Of a DNA stretch of 64,000 bases, positions 27,684 through 61,700 are shown one piece after another. This DNA is from Neocallimastix sp. 'constans'. Taxonomy: Eukaryota. The stretch covers positions 1,240,001 to 1,304,000 of the forward strand of contig JBODTK010000012.1 in the NCBI GenBank assembly GCA_050613775.1. Direction: 5' to 3'. Both the position numbers and the translations under genes were made by a program. How positions within the stretch are numbered: the first letter of the stretch is position 1; the number at the start of each line of letters is the position of its first letter. Below the pieces are notes generated by a model. That model searched no databases, was not told the origin of the DNA, and saw only the letters and a list, made by a program, of their open reading frames with translations.

Positions 27684-30600
27684 CTAACATTTTCCATTTG
27701 AATCTGGTGTTTTCGTTGGATCATAGCAAGCTACACATCCATTTTCATTACATTCTGCACAACTTTCATCACAAATGAAACATATACCATTCTTTTGCAT
27801 ATAACTATATTGGCAAACACATTTACCATCACTAATAATAGCTCTCTTATCTTTACAAGTAGTACATGAACCACTTCTATTACATGTAGCACATTCAACA
27901 TCACAAGCTTTACATGATTCATCAATATCTTCATAATAACCATCCTTACATTTACATTTTCCTTTCTTATCTGGATTTCTAAATTCACTCGTACATTCTA
28001 TACATTTTTCACTTGTACATTTAGAACATCCTTCATCACATTCAAGACATTCATTATTACTTTCATAGTAATGAACATCACATTCACATTTGTGGTTCTT
28101 CAATACTCTGTGATCTTCACATGCTGTACAACCATAATAATCACATTCTGTACAACCATTTTCACAAATAAGTTCTTGACTAATAACACATTTTTGAACT
28201 GTTCTAACAACGTTTTTGTAGAATAATTCAACCATTTTTTCACTTTGCCCTGAGGTAAATTCCTTCATATTAAAAGCACGACAGAAACCTCCATTTAATA
28301 AGATTTGACCTTGTAAACTCTTTTCTTGTTTTCTCGTAACTAATTTATCATAAATTTCCTCTCTCTCGAATTCTTGTTTCGCAATACTATCTAATAATGG
28401 GTTACCATATTGAGAAGTAATAGTGGATGAATCATCAGTGTCGGATAATCTGTTGTTAACCCATAATGGATTTGAACTACTAAATTGTGAATTAGAAACA
28501 TCACTTCCTTGAGAATCGAATAAATCATCATTCAATAACAAAAAGAGTTGAATACTATCCTTTATAATTAATTGTGCAGTCTCATCAACTTCCTTTTGAT
28601 AGGCTTCACTTAATATAATTGGTTGTCCATTTCGGTAGAAAGTGTATACACCATCAACAGAAGTTAAAATAGCTGGACTAAATGATGGCTCGAAAAATAC
28701 ATCAGCTCCATATTCTGGCAAATTATTTTTGCTAAGGTAGTATGGAAAACCAACAAAGCTTTCAACATCTTTTTTATCAACATCTTTTCCATCAAATTCC
28801 TCTAAATTAATAACATTTGTAAGATTTTCAATTTGTAAGGTATTTCTGTTTTCTTTATAAATTGGAAGATCAGAATCTTCATCTGTTAAAAGAATAATAG
28901 TCTTTGTACTTCCTTCTCTCCATTTAATCTCATTAATATCGCTGAAATTATCAATACCATAATTATTACCAGTCCAATCAACAAAATAGTCTACATTATT
29001 AAGGAACATTCTAATTGCTTCTAAACCTGATTCTTGTCCACTTTGTTGACAATTTAATTTACTGAATGCTTCTTCTACAACTTTTTCTTCCTTTGTAAAT
29101 GATGCATATAGACGTGGCTTACCACCAAAACCAATAATAGCATATCTAGCATTAGCATTAACCTTATATAATTCATCAATTAAGATATTTAATTTGTTTC
29201 TCATGGCGTCAATGTATTTACACATAGATGCACTTTCATCAATAATAAATACAATATCTGCATTAATTTCTCTATTTTCAACTTCTTCATCATTACAAAC
29301 GGTAATATTTTTGTATGGCACTGGTGGTAATACAGTTGGTTCGATAGTATAAAGTGTAGCAAAGGTTGATGTAGTCGTAGTACCGGGTATTTCAATATTA
29401 TTAACTTCTTCTTCTTCTTCTTCTGTATATGGTACTTGTTTGGTAGTACACGTTTCAACAGCTTTAACAACATTTCTGTAGAATAATTCTACTATACTAT
29501 CACTTTGTTCAGAGGTAAAATCTTTTAAATTGAAAGCACGACAAAAACCTCCCATATTTAAAACTTGACCTTGTAAACTTTTTTCTTGATTCTTATCCTT
29601 TAATTTGGAATAGATTTCTTCTGCTCTAAGATCAATTGTTCTAATACTATCTAATAATGGATTACCATATTGAGCATTAATAGTTGATGATTCATCACTT
29701 TCAGTAAAATGATTATTGGCCCAGTAAGGATTGCGATTATTGAATTGAGAATTGGAAACATCAACACCTTGTGATTCAATTAAATTATCACTTAATAACA
29801 TGAAAAGCTGAATATTATTATTGATAATTAATTGAGCTGTTTCGTCAACTTCTTTTTGATAAGAATCACTTAAGACCAGTGGAGTGCCTGAACGATAAAG
29901 AGTATATATTCCATTTACTGATGTTAAAATAGCTGGACTAAATGATGGTTCAAAGAAAACATCTGAATTATAGTTTGGCATGTATTCCTTATTTAAGTAG
30001 TATGGGAAACCCATAAATTTTTCAATATCATTTTGACTAATATCTTTATCTTCATACATTGAAATATCAACATCACTTTTCTTTACTATATTTTCTATTT
30101 GTAAATCATTTCTGTTTTCTTCATATATTGGAAGATCAGAATCTTCATCAGTGACAAGAATAATAGTTCTTGTACTTTTTTCTCTCCATTCCAATTTATC
30201 AATATCAACAAAATTTTTTTCACTATTAACTTTTTCAATTCTATTAATGAAATTTTTTGATTTATTAAGGAACATTCTAATTGCTTCCAAACCAGATTCT
30301 TGACCACTTTCATCACAATCAAGATTATAGAATGATTCTTGAATTACTTCAATATCATCTGTAAATGCACTATAAATACGGGGTTTACCACCAAAACCAA
30401 TAATAGCAAATCTAGCGTTAGCTTTAACCTTTTTTAATTCTTCTATTAAGCTGCTTAACTTTTTTCTCAATGGATCAATGTATTTACACATAGAACCACT
30501 TTCATCAATAATAAATACAATATCGGAGTTAATTTCTTTAGTTTCAACAAGGTCATCATCACAAACAGTAACATTTTTATATCTAATATATGAAATTGGT

Positions 30601-32224
30601 GTTTCTTCCCCTGATATTATTGGTGTAGTTGTTGGTGTAGTTGCTGGTGTGGTTGTTGCTTCTTCATTAAAAATTGTTTTTGTTGTACTTTCATCACTTA
30701 TGCTCGTACTAAATGAGATATTATCTTTTTTATATTTATCCCTTTTTTCTTTTTTTTCTAAGTTTTTTAATTCTTCTTCTTCTTCGTTCAGTTTATTAAT
30801 TTCATATGATTTAACAGATGAAACTATATTCTTGTAAAATAATTTTATCATATTTTCATTATCAATTATTCCATCAATTTTAAATGCACGACAGAATCCT
30901 TCATTAGATAAAATTTGTCCCTGTAAACTCTTTTCTTGTTTTTTTTCAACTAATTTAACGTATATTTCATCACGTTCTAAACTTGTTTTTTTGATATCAT
31001 CTAATCCTGGATTACCATATTGAGCAGTAATAGTAGAAGAATCATCACTCTCGTGTTTTGTTATAATTAATGACAACCATGAACCATATTCCTTCTGCCA
31101 ATATGGATTGTTTTTATTAAATTGAGAATTAGATACAAATGGTCCTTGAGCATTCATTAAATTATCACTTAATAACATAATTAATTGAACATTTTCCGCA
31201 ATTATTAAATTGGCTGTTTCATCGACTTCTTTTTGATATGATTTACTTAAAACAAGTGGTGATCCACTACGATAGAAAGTATATACATTATTAACAGACG
31301 TTAAAATAGCTGGACTAAATGCTGGTTCAATATAGTACTTAAATGAATATTCTGATGCTTGATCTTTATCTAAATGATATGGGAATCCCACAAATTTATT
31401 AACATCATTTGAATTAATTTGTTTACCATCATATATCTTAATATCCAATTCATTATTGCTGTTTTTAATTTGTAATTTGTTTCTATTTTCTTCATAATAA
31501 GGAATATCTGAATCTTCATCAGTAATAAGTACTATAGTTCTAGAACTATTTCTTCTCCAATTTAATTTATTAGTTTCAATAAAGTTATCGGAACCATCAA
31601 TATCTTCGATTTTATTAATAAATTTTTTAGATTTTTTGAGGAACATTCTAATTGTTTCTAAACCAGATTCATGATCTCCATGAATACAATTCAATTTATT
31701 AAATGCATCATTAATAGCTTTAGTATCATCAGTAAATGCACTATAAATACGTGGTTTTCCACCAAAACCAATCACTGAAAATCTGGCATTAATTTTTTCT
31801 TTACTGAGTTCATCCAATAAATCCTGTACCTTACTTTTTAAAGTATTAATATATTTGCACATTGATTTGCTTTCATCAACAAGAAATACTATATCAGAAT
31901 TTATTCCTTCATTTTTACTATCACCTTTAATTTCGTTGTTACTATCATTTTTTAAAAAATTTTGTCCTTGTGAAGATATATCTTCACAGTACTAATTTTA
32001 AATAGTATATTTTAATAAATAAATTAATATCAAAATGTAATATTAAAATCAAATTAATAAACTATAAATCCCTTTTAATTTTAATCTAGGGATACTTTTT
32101 TTTTTTTAAATATTAAAATATTTACCATAAATCCATCTTCACCTTCTGTACATTTACTTGTACTATTTACAAATGTAAAAAAAGCAAAAAATATTAAAGT
32201 TAAATATAGTAAATACCTCCTCAT
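27684..32224 (-). CDS. Secreted protein with three tandem extended von Willebrand A (VWA) repeats and C-terminal furin-like/EGF-like Cys-rich repeats; 2 exons
   Basis: Exon 1 (32224-32126) encodes MRRYLLYLTLIFFAFFTFVNS, a signal peptide. Exon 2 has three ~360-aa repeats, each with DIVF..DESxS (MIDAS), FAIIGFGG, ESGLEAI and IILxTDED. Thr-rich linkers separate them, followed by a C..C..C-rich tail. Confidence 0.9.
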
Positions 32225-35697: not shown

Positions 35698-38600
35698 TTA
35701 ATCTTTTTTAAATTTAGATAGTTTTATATTTTCAAAATTAATCATTCTAATATCATTAATATTTAATAATTGATTAATAATATATTTTAGAGTAACAGAA
35801 TTTCCGTTTTGGTTTGCTGATACCATAATTTTATTAAAATTTATACTATTTATATCAAAAGATCTATAATTAAATCTTTCTTGAATAAATATATTTTCAA
35901 TAATAAATTCAATTAATGATATCTTTTTCATTTCACTAATAGCTAATAATATTTTTTCAATATTATTATAATTTAATTCTAAAAATTTATTACTCATTAT
36001 AGTTTCAATATAAAATCTAGATATTTCTTCATCGTTTAATTTATCTGCTATTAATAATATTTTCTTAATTTTCATATTATTTTTATTAAATGTCTTATGG
36101 TTTACCAATTTTTCAATAATAAACTTCATAAAATCATTATCTTCTATTTTAGAAGCAGTTAATAATATAGTTTCAAAAACCTCATAACTTATTAAAAATT
36201 GTTTACATTTGAACAATTCTTTAATAAAATACTCTAATACAAGAATATTATCATCTAGTTGCCTTAAAATTAATAAATCTCTTCCAATTTTAATTTTATT
36301 AAGTACAAAGGTTTCATGATTAATTATCTTTTCAATAATTAATATCATTAATTCTGAATCATTAAACTGACTAACAATTAGTAGAATATCATCAAAATTA
36401 ATTTTATTAAAATCAAATGTTTCATGACTTAATGACTTTTTTATATAAATTTGCATTAATTCAACATTTTTTTTTACCATTAAATAATGAAAAGTTTTTT
36501 CAATATTTATATTATTTAAATTAAATGTTTTATGTTTTAATGATTCATTAATAAAAAATTCAATTAGTTGTACATTATCCATTTCTAATATAATATTAAA
36601 AAAATGTTCAAAACTAATAATAATATTAAAATCAAAAGCTTTATGACTCAAAAGTTTCTTGATGAATAATTTCATTAGTTCATAATTTTGGAATCGAGAT
36701 AAATCAACTAGTATAAAATCGCATCTAATATTTTTTAAATTAAAATTTTTATTTGAGAATAGTTTTTTCAAAAAGAAAAAAATAAAATCTATATTAACAT
36801 TTCCAAATATTACAGACATGTATATTTGCCCTAAAAACATTTCAATAATGTTATTGAAATGAAAGATTTTAGATTTAAATAATCTTTCAATAAAGATATA
36901 ATTATTTTTTTCCGCTGCCTTATGTAATAATTCATTGATTTCTATGTCATCTAAATAAACTTTTGGTTCATTACGAATATGATTAAAAAACCAATTTATT
37001 GCATTATTATTATTATTACATAAAGCTTCATAATAGCATTTATATGAAATAGAGATTTTATTCGTCTTATACATAACTAAAGCTTGTAATTGTTGATTCG
37101 ATAATGAAAGCTTGTATTTATAAAAAGATAATAAGTTTAAAATAAAACCATTATCAAGTGTGTAATATTTTGAAATATTATTTATAATATCATTATTATA
37201 ATTTTCTGAAAAATTATTGATATTTCTATTCATTAATGCTTCAATTAATTCAGATGTTAATTCAAATCCATGATTTAATATGTATATTAAATTTGTGCTA
37301 TTAAGCCTACGATAATAATATAACTGATAAATAATATCTTTATTATGTATTTTATAATTAATGGATGCACCATATTTTATTAAAATATCTGCAACTGCGA
37401 AGTTATTAACAGAAAGTGCACAAAAAAGAGGAGATTTATAAGATCGGTGAGTATGTATATAATAATCTAAAGTTCTATAATAAGGAATAATAAATTTAAT
37501 CATTTCTAAAGAAACGTTAATAGTTATAGCATATATTAATAGATCATACTCTTCGTTATTAAAAAAGGAAAAGGATAGATGATTTTCTTCCATATAATTT
37601 TTTAATTCTAAGATTTTTTTCATTTTAATATATTCAACTACAATTTTTCTTTTATCCTCTAAAGTTTCTAAATTATTTAAAAACTTTTTATCAATTGGTA
37701 AGTTTAATTCGTTACTATTAATTTTTTCTAAAAAAATAAATTTTTTAATACTATGATTATTTTTTTGGTCTTCTTTTAATAAAAAAAACAAATCATCGAA
37801 GATAATATCTTTTTCTCTCCAATCCATTTTATAAAGAAAATTTAGTATATCATAATTATCATTTTTAAATGCAGCCTCATAGATAGATTTATCGAATTCA
37901 ATTTTATTTTTTTCTTTATTCAATATTTTATGTATCTGTCGACTAGAAATTGATGTTTTATTTTTATAGATAGTAAGTAATTTCAAAATAAAAAAGTCAT
38001 TATAAATATATTGTTTAATTATGTTTTTCAACAACCTGTTTTGATGATCAGAAATTAACTGGTTAATAAATATTACTTTTAATTTAAAATTATTATTCAA
38101 TATGTATTTTAAATTTTTAGTATTAATAATTTTATCTTCATATAAACAAGTTAAAATAGCTCCATAATTAATATCAGCACCTTTTTTTATGAAAAAATCA
38201 AAATATTTATATTGATTTTTTAATAAAAAAGAATATAACAAAGTTGAGGATTTCCCATTAACATTCATATAGAAATTATAATTGAAACTTGTATAATTAC
38301 AATATTTAATTAAGAAATTTATCATTGAAAGTGAGACATTATTTTCAATACAATATTTTATAATGTGATTTTGGTTTTCAATGTTTTCATCTTGAATATT
38401 TAAATGAATATTATATTTTTCTAAGTATTCTTTTAACTCATTTATATTATTATTTTTAATTAATGAAAAAATATGTTCTTTTTTTTCATTGTCAGTTACA
38501 ATATTTTCCAAATCATCTAAAAATTTTTTATTAACTTGTATTTTCAATTCTGGATTTTTAAGTTTGTTAATAAATTCTGTTTTATTAATACTACTATGTG

Positions 38601-39312
38601 TAAATATGTAACAAAAATCATTTATTATTAAGTTATGTTCTCGTGGGTCATTATCATATAAGATAGCAATAGCTTCATAATTATTATAATATATAGCTGT
38701 TTCGTAAATATATCTATTAAATTCTATTTCCTTAATTCTATTATTCAATAAACCTTCCAATTTCTTATTTGTTAAAACAATTCTTTTTTTATAATGTTTT
38801 AGAAATTTTAAAATATAATCATTACTATAAATAAAGTAATTAAAAATATAAAATAAAAAATAATTTTCATTATTCATTATAAATTCATTAATTAAAAATG
38901 ATAAATTCATACCTTTATATAATACATATTTTACATTTTTATAAATATTTAAAATTTGTTTGCGTTCATCATTAACAATATAATTAATATCTGCTCCATA
39001 CTCAATCAAATAATTTGCAACTTTAAAATTACTTCTTCCAATAGCAGATAACAAAGGTGTTTTCCTTTTATATTCAGGGTATTCATTTACTATATAATTT
39101 AGAGTTTTATATTTGCATTTACATATTATATATTCTATTATATTAATTGAAGCATCATTTTCAATTGAAAAAACTAAAATATCAAAATTTTCATTATTTA
39201 AATCTTTTATTTGTAAATTATTATTCCTTATAAATTGTCTAAATTCATTAATGTCATTGTCTCTAAATATTTCTCTTATTCTTTTATTTATTTCTACACT
39301 ATTAATAGGCAT
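35698..39312 (-). CDS. Large intronless ankyrin-repeat protein
   Basis: About 1200-aa ORF (first in-frame ATG at 39312). Ankyrin motifs KTPLLSAIGRSNFKVANYLIEYGADINY and KSPLFCALSVNNFAVADILIKYGASINY sit within three ~270-aa internal repeats, followed by helical ~38-aa repeats. Confidence 0.85.
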   Translation of the reverse strand: MPINSVEINKRIREIFRDNDINEFRQFIRNNNLQIKDLNNENFDILVFSIENDASINIIEYIICKCKYKTLNYIVNEYPEYKRKTPLLSAIGRSNFKVANYLIEYGADINYIVNDERKQILNIYKNVKYVLYKGMNLSFLINEFIMNNENYFLFYIFNYFIYSNDYILKFLKHYKKRIVLTNKKLEGLLNNRIKEIEFNRYIYETAIYYNNYEAIAILYDNDPREHNLIINDFCYIFTHSSINKTEFINKLKNPELKIQVNKKFLDDLENIVTDNEKKEHIFSLIKNNNINELKEYLEKYNIHLNIQDENIENQNHIIKYCIENNVSLSMINFLIKYCNYTSFNYNFYMNVNGKSSTLLYSFLLKNQYKYFDFFIKKGADINYGAILTCLYEDKIINTKNLKYILNNNFKLKVIFINQLISDHQNRLLKNIIKQYIYNDFFILKLLTIYKNKTSISSRQIHKILNKEKNKIEFDKSIYEAAFKNDNYDILNFLYKMDWREKDIIFDDLFFLLKEDQKNNHSIKKFIFLEKINSNELNLPIDKKFLNNLETLEDKRKIVVEYIKMKKILELKNYMEENHLSFSFFNNEEYDLLIYAITINVSLEMIKFIIPYYRTLDYYIHTHRSYKSPLFCALSVNNFAVADILIKYGASINYKIHNKDIIYQLYYYRRLNSTNLIYILNHGFELTSELIEALMNRNINNFSENYNNDIINNISKYYTLDNGFILNLLSFYKYKLSLSNQQLQALVMYKTNKISISYKCYYEALCNNNNNAINWFFNHIRNEPKVYLDDIEINELLHKAAEKNNYIFIERLFKSKIFHFNNIIEMFLGQIYMSVIFGNVNIDFIFFFLKKLFSNKNFNLKNIRCDFILVDLSRFQNYELMKLFIKKLLSHKAFDFNIIISFEHFFNIILEMDNVQLIEFFINESLKHKTFNLNNINIEKTFHYLMVKKNVELMQIYIKKSLSHETFDFNKINFDDILLIVSQFNDSELMILIIEKIINHETFVLNKIKIGRDLLILRQLDDNILVLEYFIKELFKCKQFLISYEVFETILLTASKIEDNDFMKFIIEKLVNHKTFNKNNMKIKKILLIADKLNDEEISRFYIETIMSNKFLELNYNNIEKILLAISEMKKISLIEFIIENIFIQERFNYRSFDINSINFNKIMVSANQNGNSVTLKYIINQLLNINDIRMINFENIKLSKFKKD

Positions 39313-39659
39313 AACTATATTATTTAATAACACTTTTATAATTACACAATCAAAGAAATGTATTATGTAATAATATCCATTTTTTAATTTATTTATTTAT
39401 TATTTATTCATTTATTATATTATTTATTCATTTATTATTTATTATTTAATTATTATTTATTTAATGTTTATTTATTATTTATTTATTTATTATTTATTTA
39501 TTTGTTTATTTATTTAAAGTTAATATAATATAAAATATTTTACTTCTTTTAAGAAGTGTTAAGTAAAATAAAAAATAATAAAAATAAAAAAAAATTTTTT
39601 TTTAATTAATCATAGAAAATTTAATGTAATAAAGAATAAAAATAAGTTCAAAAGTTAAA

Positions 39660-41424: not shown

Positions 41425-44400
41425 TTAATTTTTATATTTTAGTAGTACTTCATATGCAATATTTATCTCTTTCATTTTTTCCGTATATTCTTCTTTTTGA
41501 TTTTCATTTTGACATTTATCCGGATGAAATTTGCGTGCTAAATTACGATATGCTTTTTTAATATTTGCTAGAGTTGGATTATTACTTTCATCTAAACCAA
41601 GAATTCTATAGCATTCTGATTTATTTGGAGATTTTGAATTGAAAGATCTAGTACGCTCTCTCTCTTTTTTTTCATAATTATTATTATAATTATATGATCC
41701 ATTAGAACTTGAAGAACTTGAATAACTTGAAGAGCTTGAAGAGCTTGAATAACTTGAATAACTTGAAGAACTTGAAGAACTCCAAGAATGTGAATAATTT
41801 GAAAATTCACTGTGTAATTTCGCTTTTCTTAAATTGGTTAATATTTCTATATTTATTTATAAATTTGTTTTTATTGTATAAAACCAATTATTATAAGAAA
41901 ATTTATTATAAAAATATTAGTAATTAATTCTTTTAGCATATAAGATATTTTTTTATAAGAAAATGAATCAAAAGTATTAAACATATTTAAAAAGAATCCA
42001 TTTCAAAGTAATATTTACCATAGTCATATGGACAAAAATCATTCAACAATGTATAATCTTTAACAGCATCATCAAAGAATTTTCCTTCTAAAAAGCATTC
42101 CGCCCTAATTTTTAATAATTCAATAAAATATTCCTTAAATATAGATTTTTTATATTCATTCATAATATATTCTTTCTTGTCTTTTAATACAAATTGATTT
42201 AATATATTAATTGACCGGTTTACATTCATAATACTCTTATTATAATTTTTCATCTATTAAAACAATATTTATGAAATTATCAATTATTTAATTTTTGAAA
42301 TATTTTTGGAATTTATCTTATACTTTTATTATAATTTTATTTTCTTTTAAAAAAAATTACATACTTTTTTATATAATTTAGCTATCTCTTTATATATTAA
42401 TATTTCAATATATCCTGTAATACAATATTCTTTATATTTTTTGAGTAATAACTTATAATTACTAATTTTCATTTCATAATTTTCATAAATATAATTGGTT
42501 TCTTCAGTCTTTTCTTTAAGTTCACTTAAATTCTCAGCTTTATTTAACTAATATGATAAATATAATATAATATATTATATTATATTAATTAAATGTAATT
42601 ATTTTGTTTATTTATACATAAATAAATAAAAAGAAATAAAAACAAATGATATAATATAATATATAAAAATATAAAAATAGATAACCATTTTTTTTAATTC
42701 TTCTAATTTTTCATTAAGAATACAAGAAGAAAGTCCTTTTTTAATATATATAATAGCTTGATTAGGTTCATTTAATTGTAAATAACAAGTTGCTAATCTT
42801 ATATATCCAAGAATAGATTGTTTATCATTATTAATAGCCGTAATACAATCTTTAATTGCTTCTTTATAATTTAATGTCATCATATATGCTGCAGCTCTAT
42901 TTGTATAATATTTAGAATTACAATGTGGGCATTTATCTATATTTTATATATATATTATTTTTTTATTAATTCTAATTTTTGAATTTATATTTATTGTATA
43001 TTTATAGAGATATATATTATTTAATTAATTAAAAGATTAATTGTCTTAAATTTACCGATTGCTTTAGTATAAAAATTGATGGCGTCCTCATAATTTTTAT
43101 TCTTATATAATTCATTTCCTTTCTTTTTATAGTTTTCAGCATCTTCGGTACTTATTTTAAATTTATTATATTTATATATTTAATAAAATATAAATCACTT
43201 TCATATAAAATAACATTATTTATTCTAATAAAATGTTATCTAATTAAATATGATATTTTATATATAAAGTTTATTAATTACTCTTTTATATATCTTTTTG
43301 CTCTATTCAACAACAAACAATAGGGATTACTAACTATATATATTTATATAAATTATATTGTTATTTAGTTTTATTTTTATTTTTTAATTTTATTTTTTAA
43401 TATTCTATTATATTTGTAATAATTATAATCAAATTAATAAAAATACCATATAGATTATTATTATTCTTTAATTTGACTAATATTTCATAGTCATTTACAG
43501 CTTTATGATATGATTTTGACTCCATATAACACTCCGCTCTAGATTTATATAATTTTTCATAAATGCTTCTATGAGAATTATTAATATTGTCATAATTATG
43601 AATAGTTATTTTCAATAATTTATCAAGATTATTAATAGCCTCAGTACAATATTGAATGCGAAGTTCTTTGTTCTATTAACATTTAAAATAAAAATAAAAA
43701 AAATTTTTATTATTAAAAAATAATAATGTATAATATAATATATTTTATTTATTATTACTAATTATTAATTAATAATAAATATGTAATAATAATAAAAATC
43801 CTTGTTCTTTTTTTTTTTACTTACACTTGTATTAATTGCCATCTTTTCTAAAATGATAACTTCAACATATTTGTAATCTTGTTTTTCCCTATAAATATTT
43901 AAAATTTGATCATAATCTGTATTTCCCATAAAATTTGAATTGACACCCTTTATTTTTTTTGCTGTTTCTAGCTAATAAAGATTTTTAATTATAATTAAAT
44001 TAATAAATTTTATTGAATATTAGTTATTATTATATATTATATATATTAAAAATGTGTGTATATATGTAAAATATTACCTCTTCATTATATTCACCGTAAT
44101 ATTCATTATTTGAATCAATATGAATCTTACTAAGTTCCTCTATGGCATTATCAGGCTTAAATAATTGAAGGTAGCATTTTGCAATATTTATAACTGCTTT
44201 ATAATATTTATTATCAAATCTATAGGCATCTTTAAAATCATCTATTGCAGAATTATAACAATAAAGTTTCATGTTCGCTAATCCACGATTAAAATAGCAT
44301 TTATAATTTTCTTTGTACAGTTCTATTTAATTTTTTATGAAATTAATATAGAATTTATTATATATAAATAAATATATAAATAACTATATAAATATGCATA

Positions 44401-47400
44401 TTTATATATTTATATATATGATTTAATATTTTAACATAACAATATACCTATTGCTTCAGTATAATATGATTTTGAAAGTTCATAATTTCCATTTTTAAAT
44501 TCGTTATTACCTTTGTTTTTTTTATTTACTGAAAGTATGGCTCTGTTATTATTATTTAAATGTAGAATAAATAATTAATATTCAAAATTTAACTTATACT
44601 GTATATTAATATATTTCAAGAATTTATTAAATATTACTTATCCATTTTATTACATAAATTCTTGAATTCTATTAATTATAGTTTTGAATTTACATTAGTA
44701 TTATTTTATACATATATATTTTTATAAATCAAATATTTTATTAATATGTAGTGAAAAAAGTAAAAAAATTTCTTAGCTACATACTTTCATCATAAGGTTC
44801 TAAAACCATTAATATTTCAATATCTTTTTTAGCATCTTCAAATTTTTCAATTTTTATTAAACTTTCTGATCTTTTTTTATATAATTCCTTAAAAAGTATT
44901 TTTTGCTTACAATCTTCATAGATTTTATTGGATGATGGTTCATCTTTTTTAAAAATAATTCTTTTTAAAATAAATAAAGCTTTACTAGTACAATCAACGG
45001 ATTCTGTGTATCTTTTTAGCTTATATATTGAATATTATTTATATTTTCATTTTTAAATTAATAGTAATATTTATTTACATATTTTAACAAATAACAAAGT
45101 ATCGAATAATCATATATTGAATAATCATATTGAATAATCATATATCCAATAATCATATATTGAATAATCATATTGAATAATCATATATTGAATAATCATA
45201 TTGAATAATCATATATTGAATAATCATATTGAATAATCATATATTGAATAATCATGTATTGAATAATCATGTATACAATAGCCATATAAAAAAAGAATAA
45301 AAACCATAACAAAAAAGATAATATAAAAAGAATAAAAAAAAATAAATAAAATAGCAACGAAATGCAATAAAAGAGAAAAACATTAACAAAATTAAATAAG
45401 ATAAATAGTGAAGAATTATAATAAAAATAATGTGTTAATAAAACGAAACTTATAAAATAAAATAAAAAAATGATTACCTCCATCAAACAAGTAGATTTAT
45501 TTCTTAATAAAATAATCAAAACTGTACCAGTCAAATATAAGTTTGTGCATTCTTCTATCAATATATCATATTGTTTAATTGCTTCTTCGAAATTTTTCTT
45601 TTTGAAATAATTATCATTAATTAATTTTTTTTGTTCATCTATCTCCTTAATCTTATTAATCAATAATTTAGCCTTTTCATTTTTATTATAATATTCCAAT
45701 GATCTACGCAAATGGCGAACTGCATTTTCAATATTACTTTTTCCCGTGATATATATTAATTTTGTTTTTAATGCATAAGCTTCAGAATTTTTTGAATTTC
45801 CAGGAGAATTTAATATAATTTCTGCGACTTTCATGGCTTCATCATAATCGTTGTTCATAAGAAGAATTTCACCTCTTAAAATTCTCCATTGAATTGGAAT
45901 ACCTTTTAAATCTTCACTTTTAAGTTTACTTATTTTTTCTTCAGATGGGCTGATAAATTGAAGACTGTTATCACATAATAACATTGCATTTTCCAATTTT
46001 CGAAGCGCTTCTTCATATTTTCTTAGTTTCATCAAACTTTCAACTTCTTTCATTGAATTCTCAAGATTAGAAACATTCTTAATCTTTAATAATTTAAATT
46101 ATATAAAATGACGTCATTATTTTATTATATATAATAGATTATATAATAATTATCAAATAATATATAACAAAAAGTTTCTATAATTAATAATATGTATTTA
46201 TAATTATTATATATAACATGCCTCATTTTCAAATTTTTGAATTAAGTATTTCGTATTATCTGTTTCCTTCGTTATTTCTAATCCTTTATTAAGCAATTCA
46301 TGTGCCTTTTCTAGATTTCCTCGATGAATACTACAACAAGCGTTAATTAAATATGCTTTTACACATCTACGATTTCTTCTAATAGCCTCTCTACAATCAT
46401 TTATAGCATCTTTATATCTATGCATTTTTAAAAAGGTATTTGCTCTGTGACAAAAATTATCACTATCTGGATATTTTTCTAATATTAAACATAAATTTAA
46501 AAACATTATAATAATTTGTTATATAACGTTATTATTAATGTATAACCAAAATATAAATTATTTTTAGATTTACTATTATAGGGTTTCTATAATAATAATT
46601 GAAATATAATAATGTTCTAAGTAATTAAACTAGTATTATAAAATAATTAAAATACCGATTAAGCCACTAAATTTTGAAAGTGCTTCATTAAATTTTTCTC
46701 CTTCTAATAAATCAATGCCTTCATTTCTAATATTAATTTGATTCATAATTCTATATGAGATTTTAAAATAATAAAAAATATTTATTAATTATTGAAAATT
46801 ACATAAATTTAAACATTTTAATTTAAATATTGTCATATATACTTATAAGTATGATATTCTTTTATTTGATCAAACTTATTTCTTAATTTTTCTTCATCAG
46901 TTAGTAAACTATTATATACTATATAATATATATATTTTAATTTTTTAATTAATTTAGTATATAACTAAATATACTTTTCTTTATTATATCTACCGTTAAT
47001 TATAATTTTCTTATTTGTTAAATCAATTAAAGGAAGTGAAGTATAAGTTTTGAACATTAAATTTTTGTTAGAGAAACTATCAATTTTTGGATAAAATCGT
47101 TTGACATCTTCTAAATTATAAAACTATGATTGTTTCAAAAATAAGTTAAGATTAATTATTTATTATATAAAATACTTATTTTTTATTTTATAATATAATT
47201 AATTTTATATAAAAAATTTCTTAGTTGAAAAAAAAAAAACTTATATACATTTCTATAAGAACTTGGAAGAAGATCAGAGCTTTCATATGGTAAAATTGTT
47301 AACATATGTTCAAAAGGACTAAGTGGTTCACCTTTTTCAAACTGAAAATATTCATTTTCTTTAAAATTACAAAGCTCTAATTGTTTATTAAATAAATTAT

Positions 47401-49261
47401 TAATAAACCTTTAAAAATAATTCTTTTTTATATAATAATTAAATAAAAACTGTTAGAATATAATTATACCAGATATAAACGGTCCGTAACTATTGCATTT
47501 ATCCCTCCAGTAACGGGGTTCGAAATTCCAACTCCATGATGGAATATCATCATAAATTGCTTTAAGAATCCACTTTATACCCTCAATGTATTGATTAACA
47601 AAATGGTATATATTACAATTTGGAATATTTCTCTTATATAATAAATATTTATTATTAATAATTAATTAATAGATGAAATAGATATTAAAAATATAATAAT
47701 AACAATAATATTTAATTTAATATTTTTAATATAAATAATATACTTCATAATAGCTCTTTTTTTGTTCTTCAAATAATTTGTTTTTTTCATTGGTATTTAA
47801 ACTTAGTTTCATATTATTAAAGTTATTTACGTAGTCTTCTTCATATTTTGGGTTCTTTTTAATTGAAATATATTTTTCTTTATTATATTTTATTTTAAAT
47901 TCCTTACATTTTAATTTAAAACTATATTCCTTATCTGAATCTAAATCTACAAGATTATCTAAATCCAAATTATTTTTATTACAGTAGTCTTTAAAATTCC
48001 AATAATCATTTTCCTTGTATGTTTTCTTCTTATTATTAACATCAATGATTTTTATTTGAAATTTTCCATCAATAAATTCCAAATTTAGTTTAGTACAAAG
48101 ATATTTTAAAAATTCAATAGTAGAACTATTGTAATTAAAATTTTTATATTTTAATTCTGGATCATTACATAATCTTTGGATATTAATAAAAATATCTTTT
48201 TTAGCACTATAATTATTTACTAATTCTATATTTTTATTTAAATAAAATTTTGTTAAATAATTTATGATATTTATAATATTTATTTATTTAAAATATTTAT
48301 ATATGTATATTAATAATATAATTACCAAATTTAATAATACTATTATTATTATCAAGAAATTCATCATTATAAACTTTATTACTACTATTTGATTCATTAT
48401 CTAAAAGAAAAATCATCTTATTGATTATATTAATATTTTCATTTAAGATAGAAAAATATTTTTTGAGATGTTTTTCATTTAATTTTCCATTACAATTAAT
48501 AAAACCAATATTAGTATAATTTTCTACATAGTTTGTAATTAAATCATTAATTAAAACATCATGGATTCCAGGTAAATAATTATTTTCTGTGATAAGCATT
48601 ATACAAATAAAGTCATCAATAACTTTATTTTGATCTTCTCTAGGTAAATCTTTAAACATATTGAGTATATGTTTTCGTAAGAAATCAATGCTAAAATATG
48701 TATTATTTTCTTTTTCATTAATAATACTATTGTATATAAAAAAAGAGCGGCGATGTAATGATAAAAGATAAAGATAAAAATCACTATCTGTAGTGTAAAC
48801 ACACGTTTTTTCTTGATAATTTTCTTTGATATGTTTCATGATTTTATTTTCTGCTTCCCCTGCTACATTAGGACCTGAAAATACCACTTTAATATTTTTC
48901 CATATATAATCATTATTCTTTTCTTGCTGAATTAAATCTTGAAATTTTTTTGAAAGTTTTTCCATAAATTCAGATCCAGAAGAAATAGAATTAAATTTAA
49001 AATTACATTTATTATGGTACTTATAGAATTCACGAATTCGACGTTGTCTTTGAATATTCATCTTTGCTTTCGGAGGAACACCATCAATAAAAATACCTAA
49101 TAATTTTCGTGGTTTAAGTTGATGAATAATAATATCAATCTTTTCAAATACAAATTTAATTAATTTATCATCATCAATTTTATCAATTAAGTTGTCAGTT
49201 TCTAATTCATGTAATTTATCACTAATAAGACCATTCATGTCAAAGTATAGAGAATCTAATT

Positions 49262-49327
<66 letters not shown>

Positions 49328-49593
49328 TATGAAATAATATGAAATAATGTTAACTTTGATAAAAAAAAACTATTTTATTATATCTTTTTTTTTATTTATT
49401 AAAATAAATTATTACTAATTTTTAAATTTTATATATTTACCAAAATCTGGTTTATCGATTTTATATTTGCATTTATTTTTAATACTAAAATATAAAAAAA
49501 AAATATAATTACTAATAATAATTTTATTATTCATAATTTATATTTATAATAAAGTATTTACTTATTCCACTTATTTAATTCACGTAAAACCAT
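41425..49593 (-). CDS. Predicted fusion protein: XRN-family 5'-3' exoribonuclease core + three DNAJC7-like TPR modules + C-terminal J-domain (about 23 exons)
   Basis: XRN motifs in order: FDSLYFDMNG, DGVPPKAKMNIQRQRR, GSEFM, GEAENKIM, DSD, IDDF, YIEGIKWIL...SWSW...GPFIS, GEPLSPFEHMLTILP, FYP, LPLID, LTDEEKLRN. TPR motifs: KNKGNNEFKNGNY..YYTEAI and KKKGNELYKNKNYEDAINFYTKAI..YTNRAAA. J-domain: YRILGL...IKKAYRNLARKFHPDK...INIAYEVL*. All exon junctions I traced are phase-compatible. Confidence 0.8.
45104..45270. repeat. Intronic minisatellite, unit GAATAATCATAT(AT)T (13-15 bp)
   Basis: About 11-12 tandem copies inside the intron at 45020-45477. Confidence 0.9.
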
Positions 49594-54388: not shown

Positions 54389-56738
54389 ATGAAATTAAAT
54401 TTTCTTAAATCAATTTCAATAGGTCTACCTATAGTAATTGGTATATATATTATAATTATTATTATTAATCCAACTATCTTAATACAATTTAAAAAATAAT
54501 AATAAAAACTATATTAATATTCATGTTTATAAATATATTAAAATTTAATATTTAGTCAATTTGAAAAAGGTAATTGCTTTAGACAATTTCTTTGGAAATA
54601 TTAGTCGTGTTGAACTTTTTGAAAATATTGATTTTAAAGTTCCAACTATTAGAATTCAATTAGATGAAACTGATTACAAAAATTTATTCTGGGGTTATGA
54701 ATGTTATAAAGATGAAACTCCAGGATTCTTGAAAAGAAATGAACATTGCTTCACTGCACCATATGTAGATTTAAATTATGCAGTAAGAAGAACTTTTCAA
54801 GATAAAGAATTCATTAAAATGAGTGCAATAACAAATTCAACTGACTTAGAATTAATTCAAAATACTATTGATGAAAAGTATAACATTACTTTAAATGAAT
54901 TTGAATCCATTATTACCAATTATTCCAACTTTACTTTAGAAGAATTATTTTCCCATCCATATAAAATTGCAATTCCATCAGAAAAATATTTTGAAGCTAG
55001 TAATAAGGTTTCTATGACCTTTGAATTAGATGAGTAAGTGAAATCATAAATATTATTAAATTATAAGTATTAAACATAAAATATATGAATTAAATTATTA
55101 ATTTAATTTGATATTAATTTTTTTATTCTTTACTTAACATATAACAGTGAAGTTAAAAAATTCTCAAAAGTTAAATTTAAAATTGGTGGTAGATCAACTA
55201 CTTTCTTTTCTAAAGTAGGCTATAACATTAATATTAAGAATGATCTATTATACGGTGCCAAGGATTTACGTTTACGTGCTGTTACTGTTGATCCATCATT
55301 CTTAAGAGATAAACTTGCGTATGATTTACATAATAAAATTGAATTACCATGTATAAGCGCAAATTATGCTAAACTGTACATTAATGATACATTTATGGGT
55401 TTATACCTTTTAAGAGATGCCTATAAAGCTAGATGGGTTGAAAATACTTTTGGAGAAAAATCAACAAAACATTTATATACTTGTAGTAATGCATATGAGA
55501 GTGAAGGAAATGATTTCTTCAAATGTATAAATGATGATGAAGATATCACAGATGATCAAGATATAAAAATTTTCTTAAAAAAATTAGAAAATTCAAAAAA
55601 TCGTAAGGACTTAGAAAAATTCTTTGATGTAAAAAGTTTCATAAGACTACAAGCTGCTAGATATTTATTCGGTTCATTAGATCATATTACTGGCGAAAAT
55701 AATAATATGCTTTATATGTATCACGATGTTTCTTCTGGTAACGATTTATGGATTCCACTTATTTATGATTTTGATATGAACTTTGGTAATTTTGGAAAGC
55801 CTAACACCAATCGTACATTTGATGAAGAAATTTTTGAAAAGAAAAATCCATTATATACAATGCTTAATATTAATGATAAAAGTGAAGAATTAATTTCTAT
55901 TATGGATGAAATTATGCGTAACGCTTTCAATCCAAATATTCTTCTTCCACGTATTGATCAATTGAGAAACTTCATTGCTCCATATGTTAAAGAAGACCGT
56001 ACTCCAGGTGAAAACGGCCGTTTTCCAGGAAGATTTGATATTGGTGTAGGTAGACCACATGATCAATTCACTTATGAAGATTTTATTAACAACAGTGAAT
56101 TCACTACAATTAAAGCTCGTCAGTACTACAACAACTTCACTGACATTTATGAAGAAAATACTGCTTTAGGTCTTAAACAGTGGGTTATTGAACGTTTTAA
56201 GTTTGCATGTGATCATTATAAAATAGATTGTTCCTATGCTGATGATATTTTAAGTAGTCCATATGCTAGTGGCTACGAAATAACCAAAACCATTCATGAG
56301 CAAAGAAATGAAGGTTGCAAAGGTACTGGTTATGCTTGTTGTATATTCAAGAATACTATAGTTGAAACTGTTGATGAGAGTGGCCAATGGGGACATGAAG
56401 GAAATGATTGGTGCCTAATGAACTTTGATGATGAAGAAGAAGAAGAACCAATTTACGACGAAAAATGTTGGTCGCTTTCACAAGGTTACCCATGTTGTAA
56501 GAAAGAAACCACTGCTATAAACTATACTAGTAGTAGTACCGGTGCGGAATGGGGTATAGAAAATGGTAATTGGTGTGGTATCACTGATAAACAACGTAAT
56601 CGTCAAAAAAATTGTCCAATAAATGAAGGATATACTTGTTGTAAAGGATGTGATGTAATATATACTGATGACTTTAAATGGGGTTTTGAAGCTGGTGACT
56701 GGTGTATTACTCCATATTCTTGCGATGAACAAAAGTAA
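54389..56738 (+). CDS. cotH: Secreted CotH-kinase-family protein with three C-terminal fungal dockerin (CBM10-like) domains; 3 exons (54389-54440, 54556-55033, 55148-56738)
   Basis: Signal peptide MKLNFLKSISIGLPIVIVNLKKVIA. CotH motifs KIGGRST, K.GYNI, LRLRA...DPSFLRDKLAYD, LYINDTFMGLYLL.D, GSLDH...NN and WIPLIYDFDMNFG. Three GY.CC...WG.E...WC modules at the C-terminus. Confidence 0.93.
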
Positions 56739-57659: not shown

Positions 57660-57755
57660 ATGACTCTAAGTGTACTAGAAGAGTTATAGTAAAGTTTAAA
57701 GAGGTTTTAATTTTGATTAATTTTAAATAAAAAAAAAAAAAATAAAAAAAAAAAA

Positions 57756-58745
57756 ATGTCCGAAGTCTTAAAAACAAAAGATCAGCTAAATAGCTCTAAT
57801 TTTAAGTTGTGGAAACAACAATTGTATTTATTATTAAGGAGATTTAATTTAACGGATTATCTTAATAGTGTCAAAATTGAAAAAGTGGATGGTTCCACTT
57901 TAAAGGAAGAAGAAAAACAAAATTTAATTCTAGTGGATGACACTATAAACACTTATTATAAAAAAGGAACAAAAAGTGAGGTCCTCAAAAATGATGCTAA
58001 GGTCAAGGAAATTATTTTAAATAGTATTAATGAAGAACTAGCATCCAGTATAGATTTCATATCTGGTACAGCATATGAAATCTATAGGATGATAGTAAAC
58101 CTAAATTTAAGTGATGAAAAGGATAGAATTGAGGAAATTAAAGATTCCCTTAATCACTCAAAATACGACCCAGAAAGTGATCCATCGTTGTCCATATTTA
58201 TCTCTAATATGAATTTAAAGTTTAAGGAACTTGAAAATCTCGGAGAAAAACTAGAATTTAAGGAAAAATTTATTTATCTGTTTAATGCTATGCCAGAAGA
58301 ATTAACTATAAAAACAAATTTAATAGACCTACAAACGGACTGGGAAGATACTACCAAAAAGTTAATTGAAAGGGTACAGCTACTAAAAAGAGTAAAAGAA
58401 AAGAAAGAAAAATCGGAAAATATTGTTTCAAATCTTAATACGCCAAATGTTCAAAGTAATTATACCAATAAAAACTATAGTAATAATAATAATAAATATA
58501 ATAATAAAAATTATAAAAATAATATTGAATGTTGGAGTTGTGGTAAAAAAGGTCACTATCAAAGTGAATGTAATAATAGAAAGAATTTTAATAAAAATAA
58601 TAATAACAATTATTACAAATATAATAAAAATAAATTTAATAATAATAGAAATAATAATAAAAATTATAATAATAATAAATATTACAAAAATGATAAAAAC
58701 TATGATGGGAGGCGAAACGCGTTGCCTAAACAGCACAGTAAATGA
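57756..58745 (+). CDS. gag: Copia Gag
   Basis: N-terminal LNSSNFKLWK motif; zinc knuckle CWSCGKKGHYQSEC. Confidence 0.93.
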   Translation: MSEVLKTKDQLNSSNFKLWKQQLYLLLRRFNLTDYLNSVKIEKVDGSTLKEEEKQNLILVDDTINTYYKKGTKSEVLKNDAKVKEIILNSINEELASSIDFISGTAYEIYRMIVNLNLSDEKDRIEEIKDSLNHSKYDPESDPSLSIFISNMNLKFKELENLGEKLEFKEKFIYLFNAMPEELTIKTNLIDLQTDWEDTTKKLIERVQLLKRVKEKKEKSENIVSNLNTPNVQSNYTNKNYSNNNNKYNNKNYKNNIECWSCGKKGHYQSECNNRKNFNKNNNNNYYKYNKNKFNNNRNNNKNYNNNKYYKNDKNYDGRRNALPKQHSK

Positions 58746-61700
58746 AGTAAATAAACAAGATAAACACAGAGAATACTTTTTCAAAGACTATAATGATGCG
58801 TATAATATTGAAACAGGTAATGCATCAAGAAGTATTCTCCCATTCAACAAACCATCTTATTTTAAAGAAAATAAAAATAAACAAAATAAAAAATTAAATG
58901 ATAATAATAAAAATAAATTAACCAAAAATATTAGTACATGGACACTAGATTCTGGCACCACATACCATATGATATGTGATCCAAATCTATTATCAAATTA
59001 TAAAAAACACAATCGGAGAATTTATTTCGCCAATGGTGAATACGTTAAGTGCAGAGGAATAGGTACTTACATAGGTTATATAAATGACAACAAAATTACT
59101 CTTAAAAATGTATTGTATGTTCCCTCATTCAAGAAAAATTTACTCTCAGTAGACTGTTTATCCGAACAAGGATACAAAACTGTTTTTTGTAAAGGAAATA
59201 ATAAAAATTGTGTAATATTATTTAATAGTAAAAATAATAGAATCTGTACAACATATTCAAATTATTCCAGAACTTATATTATTTGGACTTCCAAGAATAA
59301 AATAAATTTTTATAATAATGATATCAATTGTAATAATGCCAATAGTGAAGAAGAGGAAAGTCTCTACGTATGGCATAGACGTTTGGGACATTATAATCTA
59401 GGAACACTTAGGAAAACATTAAAAAGAATATATATAAAATGTAAATGCAAGACGTGTGCGAAAACAAAATTAAAAAGTTTCCCACATTACCCCTCAGATA
59501 GTCGCGCTACTGAACCATTTGAATTGGTTCATATGGACACTGTTACTATTAATAGTAGGTCCATGTATGGAAATAAATACTTTGTTTCTATTTTAGATGA
59601 TTACACTCGTTTTGGTTGGGTCTTATTTATCAAATCCAAACGTGATGTTTTTAACGCCTTTTTAAATTGGTATAATAACATTAAAAACATATTTAATAAA
59701 AATATTAAAAGATTACGGACTGACAATGGAACAGAGTTTACTAACAATAAAATTATAGAGTTTTGTAATATTAATGGAATTACACATGAGTTTTCTGTCC
59801 CTTACGAACCTCAACAAAATGGACGTATCGAAAGGTTACACGGTTCTCTCCTTCCAAATGCTAGAGCGATGTTAGAGGATGCCCGCCTTAATCATGTTTT
59901 CTGGGAGGATGCCATTAGGACAGCTAACTATATCCACAATAGGATGCCACATAGAGGTATTGATAATAATGTTCCGTATGAACTTCTTTATAATGAAAAA
60001 GTCGATTATTCAAGGTTTAGAGTCTTTGGTTGTCAAGTCTTTTTCCTTGTCCCTAAACAGTTTAGAAATAAATTAACTAACTCTTCCCTCCCAGGTATCT
60101 TTCTTGGATACGATACCAACCCAACTGCTTATAGGATTTTTGATATCACTAATAATAAAGTTGTTATTTCTCGTTCTGTTGTATTTTTTGAAGATATTCC
60201 TGGTAATGGTTCTGCTCCTCCTTCTCCTCCGGATTTAATAAATTTCACTCCTTATTATGAAATCGGGGGAAGTAATGATGGTGAAGACGTTGTAGACTTT
60301 GAGGACAATAACGTAAATGATAAAAGTATAAATGAAAATAATAACAATATGGAAAATAGTACAAACAATAATGTAGATAATAATAATAATATGAACAACA
60401 ACATAAATGATAATATAAATGGGTACACAAACTATTACTACAATAATTTAGATTATCCACCTCCTAATAATTTATATTATTATAATCCATATGCATTTGT
60501 AAATTATCCAAATAATTTCCAAAATCATTATGCTCCAAATCAATATAATTTAAATCCATATAATAATTTAAATTATTGTATTCCTCCAAATTATTATAAT
60601 TATACAGCACAAAACTTTCCCTCTCCTGTTTTAAATTCTCAGAATGGACATCCCATAAATTACCAAAATCTAAACGTTTCTAATAATTCAAATATTAATC
60701 AAAATAATTTAAATCAATTAAATTCAAATGATGTAGACCATTTAAATCAAAATAATTTAAACAATAATTCAAATCAAAATAATTCAGACAATAATGATCA
60801 ATTTAACTCGAACAATTTAAATCAAGGTAATTTAAATAATTTAAATCAAGTTATTTCGAACAACAATTTAAAACAAGGCAGTCCAAATGACAACTTAAAT
60901 CAAGCAATTCAAAATGATAATGTTAACAAGAATAATAGAAACAACTTAAATGACCAAACTAATTCAATTAATAATGTAAATAATATCAATAATGTAAACC
61001 AGTTAACTCAAAATAATTCGAAATATAATAATACTAGGGTAGAAGAAATAATCAGTAAAATACCAAGAGTTACAGATAATGGAGATTATAATAAGCGTGA
61101 TGGAAAATCAATTGATTTAAATAATTTAACGAATAGAAATAATAATTCAAGCTCAACATCTGGAAATTCTAATGCGGAAATTAACCAAAATATAAACAAA
61201 CAAAACATAAATAAACCATATGCAAGTAAATCAAATGTAAGTACTTCGGATAATATGAATAAAGATAAAGAAAGTATTTTATCTAAAAGAAAACATGTTG
61301 AAGAAATGAATGAAGAAGAATTAAATGATAGGAATGAAAGTAATAATTATAAGAAAAGGAGAGCAAGTAATTATTATAATTTAGTTGCATTAAATTGTAG
61401 TGAAATGGAATTACCGTTACCAAACTCGTATAAAGATATATTTGATAGACCTGATAAAGAGGAATGGTTAAAGGCAATTGAAACTGAATTAAATAACATG
61501 AAGGATATGGAAGTGTACACACTTGTTAAAGAAATTCCAAAAGGAAAGAATATAATTTCAGCTAAGTGGGTATTTAGCTATAAGAGAAATGACGTAGGTA
61601 TAATTATAAGATTTAAGGCGAGGTTAGTTGCTCGCGGTTTTACTCAAATTTATGGAATAGACTATATAGAAACATTCTCACCTACTTTAAAGCAAGATTC

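What the first reader, a model, noticed from the sequence alone, without database searches (positions are those of the whole stretch)
41425..49593. XRN exoribonuclease - multi-TPR - J-domain fusion: a possible chaperone-coupled RNase system
Seen: a full XRN catalytic core, with both conserved regions in order, ends at LTDEEKLRNKFDQIKEYHTY AA|GTATAT (46843). After a 92-nt AT-rich intron (46751-46842), TAG|A ATT ATG continues in frame into a TPR exon; the TPR exons then run in phase to an HPD-containing J-domain. Known: canonical Xrn1 and Xrn2/Rat1 have no TPR or J domains, while DNAJC7 (TPR+J) is an Hsp70/Hsp90 co-chaperone. Inference: this is a divergent extra XRN paralogue wired to Hsp70. It could serve RNP disassembly-coupled decay, or act as an effector/TPR-sensor defence protein against RNA viruses or transposons. 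I know of no described protein with this architecture.
Basis: partly seen in the sequence, partly recalled or inferred. Interest (0 to 1): 0.9.

Follow-up and report, generated by a model that had tools for sequence, protein, structure and literature searches.

The report
RNA-shredding enzyme fused to chaperone adaptor
Anaerobic gut fungi splice an RNA-degrading XRN enzyme and an Hsp70 co-chaperone (TPR repeats plus J-domain) into one transcript, usually annotated as two genes, and the fused protein likely uses the chaperone to open up protein-covered RNA targets and then degrade them.

Summary
The fusion is real. A 23-exon model (49593-41425, minus strand) gives one ORF of about 1,719 aa: XRN core, TPR array, C-terminal HPD J-domain. 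RNA contigs from 4 of 4 runs laid (4 studies) skip exactly 46751-46842, and none covers the intron. A 50%-identical gut-fungal-like ORF crosses the same junction. Both halves are joined or adjacent in Neocallimastix, Piromyces and Anaeromyces records, mostly annotated as two genes. None of 267 canonical-type XRN proteins held has TPR or J. The XRN core folds like Xrn1 (Z 32) and keeps 6 of 7 catalytic acids and the 5'-phosphate pocket. It has subfamily-wide His41->Ser, Asp292->Asn and Trp540->Phe changes and lacks Xrn1's C-terminal domains, so it is likely a slower, retargeted nuclease. Unresolved: its substrate, whether it is active, whether canonical Xrn1 coexists, DNAJC7 orthology, and its origin within the Xrn1 side of the tree. 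No paper describing it was found.

The parts
41425..49593 (-). Whole gene, 23 exons, one ORF of 1,719 aa (1,708 aa with a shorter exon 18)
   Evidence: Phase-consistent model, 21 GT and 1 GC donors, all AG acceptors, no internal stop; agrees over most of its length with named Neocallimastix models P0009 and P0012 (97%)
49441..49593 (-). Exons 1-2 (49562-49593, 49441-49484): start codon and altered XRN first helix
   Evidence: same N-terminus in P0001/P0009
48326..49255 (-). Exon 3: XRN conserved region 1 with D31, D83, E159, E161, D182, D184, K90/Q94/R97/R98; S37 for His41; N251 for Asp292
   Evidence: Pfam XRN_N E 1.9e-35; site table
47744..48225 (-). Exon 4: subfamily-specific folded insert (aa 336-490) of two alpha/beta units
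   Evidence: pLDDT mostly 85-97 in the model; weak internal repeat, 24% over 68 aa, E 0.002
46843..47632 (-). Exons 5-8 (47470-47632, 47249-47376, 46994-47123, 46843-46918): XRN conserved region 2, F617 for Trp540, ending LTDEEKLRN
   Evidence: Pfam XRN_M; alignments to solved Xrn1/Rat1
46751..46842 (-). Intron 8, 92 nt, joins XRN to TPR; holds the read-through stop
   Evidence: Skipped in contigs of 4 of 4 runs laid, depth 0 inside
45478..46750 (-). Exons 9-11 (46656-46750, 46222-46478 with GC donor, 45478-46083): first TPR triplet (degenerate clamp) and conserved TPR core
   Evidence: Pfam TPR; exon 9-10 join seen as loose end; 53-59% identical across genera
44078..45019 (-). Exons 12-15: helical repeats and second TPR triplet (K8, N12, N43, K73 kept; R77 lost)
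   Evidence: clamp numbering recalled from HOP TPR1
42019..43971 (-). Exons 16-22 (exon 18 = 43282-43333): extra TPR module with third triplet (K8, N12, N43, R77 kept; K73->L) and closing helical repeats
41425..41846 (-). Exon 23: serine-rich linker, J-domain with HPD (about 41440-41613), stop codon
   Evidence: Pfam DnaJ E 2e-15

Best explanation
The locus is one spliced gene joining an XRN nuclease core to a long TPR array and a C-terminal J-domain, and the protein likely acts as a targeted, Hsp70-assisted 5'->3' RNase: the TPR arm would bind a protein or RNP target and tether Hsp70, the J-domain would trigger Hsp70 to loosen that complex, and the XRN core would then degrade the exposed 5'-monophosphate RNA, probably more slowly and less processively than Xrn1. 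Shown: the splice, the single ORF, the domains, conservation across genera, the residue pattern. Predicted: the XRN fold. Inferred: nuclease activity, Hsp70 binding, target recognition by the TPRs and the order of steps.
For: Splice in 4 of 4 runs laid. The X1 contig runs 3,138 nt beyond exon 9, against 3,047-3,080 nt of modelled exons 10-23, and 562 nt upstream (inference from length only). P0016, a 642-aa ORF filling a 1,929-nt JGI contig, crosses from the XRN tail into the TPRs at 50% identity. Six catalytic acids and K93/Q97/R100/R101 are kept wherever the subfamily rows cover them, except one Asp206 at the truncated end of P0031, although the clade sits on a stem of 2-3.5 changes per site: this points to selection on catalysis. 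The changed residues are the more tolerant ones: yeast Xrn1 H41A still degrades 5'P RNA and loses only deNADding (PMC8850482, passages); the matching seventh carboxylate of FEN1, D233N, costs 16-fold against 530-fold for D86N (PMC5490271, passages; the equivalence to Xrn1 D292 follows from the seven-acid lists in PMC5499597, and is my inference). Model pLDDT 86, best match human XRN1 Z 32.3, rmsd 2.9, 466 aligned. TPR core and J-domain are as conserved as the nuclease (53-59% and 59-65% against 46-54%). DNAJC7 binds Hsc70 through both TPR-EEVD and J-domain and holds clients by its TPRs (PMC13278355, passages); class C J-proteins take complexes apart (PMC13254874, passages).
Against: No activity, substrate or partner was measured. 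The conserved MG(V/I)P start of the first helix, which matters for translocation (PMC9512700, passages), is replaced; with three further substitutions the enzyme could be weak or dead. No TPR triplet keeps all five clamp residues (best 4 of 5). The P. finnis model has HLD, not HPD (1 of 3 genera with a J-domain record). Only junctions 8/9 and 9/10 were seen directly, in contigs rather than raw reads, so minor unspliced or separate transcripts are not excluded.
Confidence: 0.45

Rival explanations
1. Chaperone-gated defence effector: the TPR array senses a viral or transposon protein and holds or releases an N-terminal RNase, with Hsp70 resetting or activating it, in the effector-plus-repeat-sensor style of fungal immune receptors (style recalled).
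For: Lineage-restricted, very long stem; TPR module number differs between genera and the P. finnis model carries a near-identical repeat; two XRN copies 80% identical on one Anaeromyces contig; Xrn1 acts against viruses (PMC5499597 table); gut fungi lack RdRP (PMC5796279, passages).
Against: No NACHT/NB-ARC switch among the Pfam hits; no PADLOC family for 5 of 5 proteins (a bacterial library, weak evidence); apparently one copy in each of the three Neocallimastix records seen; transcript present in all four runs laid; selection on the TPRs was not tested.
Confidence: 0.25
2. Pseudo-nuclease sensor: the XRN domain binds 5'-monophosphate RNA ends without cutting and delivers the TPR-J co-chaperone and Hsp70 to RNPs.
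For: D292->N in 9 of 9 subfamily rows covering it and H41->S in 6 of 6, against D and H in 11 of 11 canonical rows; GND in 140 of 147 canonical-type proteins, 6 unreadable by the pattern; phosphate pocket intact; first helix altered.
Against: Six metal-binding acids are kept across genera about 50% apart; the equivalent single mutants in yeast Xrn1 and FEN1 stay active.
Confidence: 0.15
3. This is the gut fungi's main cytoplasmic Xrn1, remodelled: the TPR-J arm replaced the C-terminal domains and general mRNA decay depends on it.
For: Falls on the Xrn1 side in all three careful trees; no canonical gut-fungal Xrn1 was seen.
Against: Those lists show 8, 150 of 6,908 and 120 of 7,802 hits, most without names, so absence is not shown; a clade with chytrid and blastoclad Xrn1 is rejected (p-AU 0.021); the extreme stem and active-site changes are unlike a housekeeping decay enzyme.
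Confidence: 0.1
4. Two neighbouring genes (XRN and a TPR-J co-chaperone) with occasional read-through splicing.
For: Split annotation in N. constans, N. lanati, P. finnis and A. robustus; an ATG sits just inside exon 9; only contigs were laid.
Against: Only 92 nt between the halves, an ordinary intron (median 122 nt); spliced form in 4 of 4 runs with no intron-covering contig; the exon 9 Met is not conserved in P0016 or P0020; the annotators' breakpoints differ from each other and fall inside domains.
Confidence: 0.04

Closest known systems
Xrn1 (5'-3' exoribonuclease 1; PDB 3pie, 2y35, 6q8y, 9e70)
   Same: Fold (Z 30-32), best sequence hits (E 7e-42), six acids, basic 5'-phosphate pocket, short N-terminus and SG motif before GEGEH (G in 102 of 109 Xrn1-type proteins).
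   Different: No D1 domain hit, TPR-J in place of the C-terminal domains, H41S, D292N, W540F, altered first helix, about 30% identity in region 1.
Xrn2/Rat1
   Same: Shared catalytic core (Z 27.9); also lacks Xrn1's C-terminal domains.
   Different: Outside the Xrn2 clade (100/99-100); SG not SD motif. Grouping with Xrn2 is not rejected by AU (p 0.19).
DNAJC7/TPR2 and DNAJC3/P58IPK (TPR + J co-chaperones)
   Same: TPR array followed by a J-domain with HPD; best natural PDB match of the TPR-J profile is DNAJC3 (E 1e-23), then SPAG1, STIP1.
   Different: About 900 aa of repeats rather than three TPR domains in 56 kDa, degenerate clamps, J-domain at the very end with no tail, and a nuclease in front. 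Orthology to DNAJC7 not tested.
Sacsin and sacsin-like proteins (ATPase repeats + J + HEPN)
   Same: A J-domain and an RNase-type domain in one chain (bioRxiv 10.64898/2026.09.30.754977, passage).
   Different: Unrelated nuclease fold, no TPR array of this kind, no XRN.
Stand-alone XRN nucleases of giant viruses
   Same: Catalytic core only; good fold matches (E 7e-19); weak tree attraction (80/88, long-branch warning).
   Different: Lower identity (18-19% against 21-22% for yeast Xrn1); no subfamily relative in viral contigs; this gene has 22 spliceosomal introns.

Membership tests
XRN family | XRN_N and XRN_M domains above Pfam cut-off, in order | tested here: met
   P0009: 135.7 and 58 bits against 22.9 and 23.8
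XRN family | XRN fold | tested here: met
   Predicted model, Z 32.3, rmsd 2.9, 466 aligned to 9e70
XRN family | Seven acidic metal ligands (D35, D86, E176, E178, D206, D208, D292; list from PMC5499597) | tested here: not met
   6 of 7; D292 is N in 9 of 9 subfamily rows
XRN family | Basic 5'-phosphate pocket K93, Q97, R100, R101 | tested here: met
   4 of 4 in all 9 subfamily rows covering them
XRN family | His41/Trp540 base stack | tested here: not met
   Ser (6 of 6) and Phe (4 of 4); Phe also in canonical P0123
XRN family | Processive 5'->3' decay of 5'-monophosphate RNA | not testable with these tools
   needs an assay
Xrn1 orthologues | C-terminal D1-D4 domains | tested here: not met
   No D1 profile hit on the model; no such Pfam family on the exons or on P0012
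Xrn1 orthologues | Nests within fungal Xrn1 | tested here: inconclusive
   Inside opisthokont Xrn1 96/99 but drawn to long viral-like rows 80/88; AU: all fungal Xrn1 p 0.089, chytrid/blastoclad p 0.021, viral-like p 0.245, Xrn2 p 0.19
Xrn2/Rat1 orthologues | Within the Xrn2 clade; SD motif and longer N-terminus | tested here: not met
   AU does not reject a sister position
Class C J-domain proteins | J-domain with HPD | tested here: met
   Pfam DnaJ 57 bits; HPD in Neocallimastix and Anaeromyces, HLD in the P. finnis model
Class C J-domain proteins | Stimulates Hsp70 ATPase | not testable with these tools
   needs an assay
DNAJC7/TPR2 | Three TPR domains then J, about 56 kDa, no catalytic domain | tested here: not met
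   TPR region about 900 aa plus XRN; DNAJC7 layout from PMC13278355
DNAJC7/TPR2 | Intact EEVD-binding carboxylate clamp (K8, N12, N43, K73, R77; numbering recalled) | tested here: inconclusive
   Best triplets keep 4 of 5; first triplet degenerate
DNAJC7/TPR2 | Sequence orthology of the TPR-J part | not tested
   No DNAJC7 sequence was returned by any search

The most novel reading that the evidence does not exclude
A gut-fungus-wide, catalytically active 5'->3' RNase with its own Hsp70 disassembly arm: a single-chain machine that recognises a target (possibly viral or retrotransposon RNPs) through variable TPR modules, strips it with Hsp70 and destroys the RNA, a form of RNA surveillance or innate immunity not described in fungi.
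Probability: 0.3. Interest if true: 0.88.

Novelty: new variant of a known kind. Interest (0 to 1): 0.68.

Why it matters
XRN enzymes are among the most conserved RNA-decay proteins, and their known helpers (Rai1, PAXT-1, decapping factors, the ribosome) are separate partners. Here an XRN core has been permanently joined to an Hsp70 co-chaperone and kept for the span of several genera, hidden because annotations split it. It offers a direct, single-protein test of whether chaperone-driven RNP remodelling can be coupled to 5'->3' decay, a natural H41S/D292N/W540F variant for XRN mechanism, and a candidate RNA defence or surveillance factor in a biotechnologically used fungal group.

Tried and rejected
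No whole genome is held, so canonical Xrn1, Xrn2 and DNAJC7 could not be sought in this organism. One search (canonical-type Xrn1 query) listed 120 of 7,802 hits, none named as a gut fungus: inconclusive. Only the 263-nt junction region was laid, so other junctions, 5' and 3' ends and a DNA control are untested. Single-sequence fold failed (pLDDT 35); the aligned fold worked but covers P0009, whose linker skips exon 8, so the XRN-TPR geometry is not modelled. Complex prediction of XRN 1-638 with TPR core 1-355: no answer, score 0.00, no evidence either way. ESM Atlas gave no usable hit for the whole protein or the insert. No subfamily locus in viral contigs or JGI metagenome contigs; one search found no usable pattern. 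P0023 (1,248 aa) looked like a new architecture but is a tandem Xrn2-like model. The exon 4 insert has no Pfam match; an R3H-like reading rests on a sub-threshold hit in one fungal Xrn1 (E 0.22) and is not claimed. The 57-row tree finished only in quick mode. A 13-nt mini-exon at 46574-46586 was rejected: the RNA loose end goes from exon 9 straight to exon 10. Earlier scan findings: none. Paper searches for this architecture found nothing relevant; three gut-fungal or early-fungal papers read by passage have no XRN or exoribonuclease mention. The library lacks most subscription journals and no supplements were read; domain tables in genome-paper supplements could list the architecture. No paper giving the effect of Xrn1 D292 mutation itself was found.
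Full report
Observation. The region lies in a very AT-rich, intron-rich genome; its proteins are near-identical to named Neocallimastix records. Donor and acceptor phases give a 23-exon model from ATG 49593 to TAA 41425 with one open frame of 1,708 aa, or 1,719 aa with the TAG acceptor at 43334, which the public model P0012 also uses. Residue numbers below follow the 1,708-aa model. Pfam on 19 exon pieces places XRN_N, XRN_M, TPR and DnaJ in that order.

The fusion is transcribed and spliced. One search listed 24 runs holding the stretch; I laid 4 (three on record as RNA, one guessed) on 46650-46912. In 4 of 4, one contig skips exactly 46751-46842 with GT-AG ends, no contig covers the intron, and the sequence beyond exon 9 is exon 10. 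By record coordinates the contigs extend 562-765 nt upstream, which on the spliced model reaches exon 4, and 991-3,138 nt downstream; the longest passes the modelled stop (inferred from lengths, not aligned). These are contigs: they show presence of the spliced form, not its share, and no DNA run was laid.

The fusion is conserved. XRN halves were found in three Neocallimastix records, Piromyces finnis, Piromyces sp. E2, Anaeromyces robustus (two copies, 80% identical) and Pecoramyces, plus unnamed metagenome proteins. TPR-J halves have consecutive or near-consecutive accessions on contigs of the same length. Two public models already join XRN and TPR, by skipping exons (P0004, P0009), and A. 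robustus P0020 runs from the XRN tail into the first TPR helices. Gene models are predictions, not independent proof. More telling are P0015 and P0016, ORFs that fill JGI contigs of 1,386 and 1,929 nt, span many exon equivalents without a break and cross the junction at 50% identity: most simply a spliced transcript of another gut fungus (inference). For Pecoramyces only an XRN fragment was seen. Profiles of the J-domain and TPR triplets hit 0 of 267 canonical-type XRN proteins held, and none of the 120 listed carries those Pfam families; these are samples of several thousand XRNs, so other fusions are not excluded.

The nuclease. With a 48-row alignment the XRN part folds confidently (pLDDT 86, pTM 0.80) and matches Xrn1 structures best (Z 30-32 against 27.9 for Rat1). 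Of the seven acids listed for XRN1 (PMC5499597, passages) six are kept; the seventh is Asn in 9 of 9 subfamily rows. The four pocket residues are kept in 9 of 9. His41 is Ser in 6 of 6 and Trp540 is Phe in 4 of 4. The first helix keeps Trp9 but not MG(V/I)P. H41A yeast Xrn1 still degrades 5'P RNA (PMC8850482, passages), and FEN1 D233N is 16-fold slower against 530-fold for D86N (PMC5490271, passages). I infer a working but slower, less processive enzyme; a dead sensor remains possible, given the role of the first helix and base stack (PMC9512700, passages). Xrn1's C-terminal domains are absent. Exon 4 encodes a well-folded insert with a weak internal repeat and no family match.

Origin. Three careful trees (28, 26 and 30 rows, chosen from those held) put the gut-fungal clade (100/100, stem 2.1-3.5) outside Xrn2 and on the Xrn1 side. 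Finer placement is unstable: inside opisthokont Xrn1 at 96/99, but beside long stand-alone XRNs at 80/88 when those are added; one of those has a relative in a viral contig. AU tests do not reject fungal Xrn1 (p 0.089), the viral-like trio (p 0.245) or Xrn2 (p 0.19), and reject chytrid plus blastoclad Xrn1 (p 0.021). Motifs, sequence ranks and fold scores favour a duplicated cellular Xrn1. Whether canonical Xrn1 persists in these fungi is open.

The co-chaperone arm. Three clamp-type TPR triplets (aa 664-765, 1073-1176, 1317-1417) alternate with other helical repeats (the profile was built from these units). The second and third keep 4 of 5 clamp residues, the first is degenerate (numbering recalled). 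Module number varies: Anaeromyces P0014 has one module fewer, P. finnis P0013 a near-identical repeat. The J-domain ends the protein and has HPD, except HLD in the P. finnis model. The best natural solved match is DNAJC3. DNAJC7 uses both TPR-EEVD and J contacts with Hsc70 and binds clients by its TPRs (PMC13278355, passages; PMC13254874, passages), so the arm works like a DNAJC7-type adaptor by inference; membership was not tested and the size criterion is not met.

Mechanism. Most likely (0.45) a targeted, Hsp70-assisted 5'->3' RNase: TPR capture, J-triggered remodelling, decay of the exposed 5'P end. Rivals: chaperone-gated defence effector (0.25), RNA-end sensor without catalysis (0.15), replacement of general Xrn1 (0.10), two genes (0.04). 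I put the reality of the fusion at about 0.95.

Novelty. Searches for the architecture (listings and abstracts) found no description; passages of three papers on gut or early fungi do not mention XRN or exoribonucleases (PMC8778642, PMC5796279, bioRxiv 10.1101/2021.12.02.471044). The nearest precedent seen is sacsin, with J and HEPN in one chain (bioRxiv 10.64898/2026.09.30.754977, passages). Supplements and most subscription journals were not searched. All parts are known domains; their union and the active-site signature appear undescribed, hence a new variant of a known kind, interest 0.68.

Noticed in passing
P0003, P0014, P0020 (A. robustus ORX83882, ORX83884, ORX83885): Two XRN copies, 80% identical, flank a TPR-J model on one contig: a local duplication of the fusion gene.
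   Followed up: partly
P0013 (P. finnis): Near-identical tandem TPR module and HLD in place of HPD; could be real J-domain inactivation or a model or sequence error.
   Followed up: no
window 47744-48225 (-): Exon 4 encodes a confidently folded 150-aa insert of two alpha/beta units with no family match; a candidate RNA-binding module.
   Followed up: partly
window 46221 (-): Intron 10 has a GC donor; N. lanati model P0009 stops just after it and P0012 starts after it, which likely explains the split annotation.
   Followed up: partly
window 45100-45288: Tandem repeat (13-15 nt unit, about 12 copies) inside the longest intron (458 nt).
   Followed up: no
window 35698-39396 (-): Intronless ankyrin-repeat ORF of about 1,200 aa, 2 kb downstream of the J-domain end.
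   Followed up: no
window 27684-31991 (-): ORF of 1,435 aa with three von Willebrand A domains and a cysteine-rich tail.
   Followed up: no
window 54549-56738 (+): CotH kinase with three CBM_10 (dockerin-type) repeats.
   Followed up: no
window 57717-62943 (+): Copia-type retrotransposon (integrase before RVT_2) whose gag-like ORF and pol ORF overlap in different frames, suggesting a frameshift.
   Followed up: no
window 5450-5875 (+): Exon of a GMP-PDE delta family gene.
   Followed up: no
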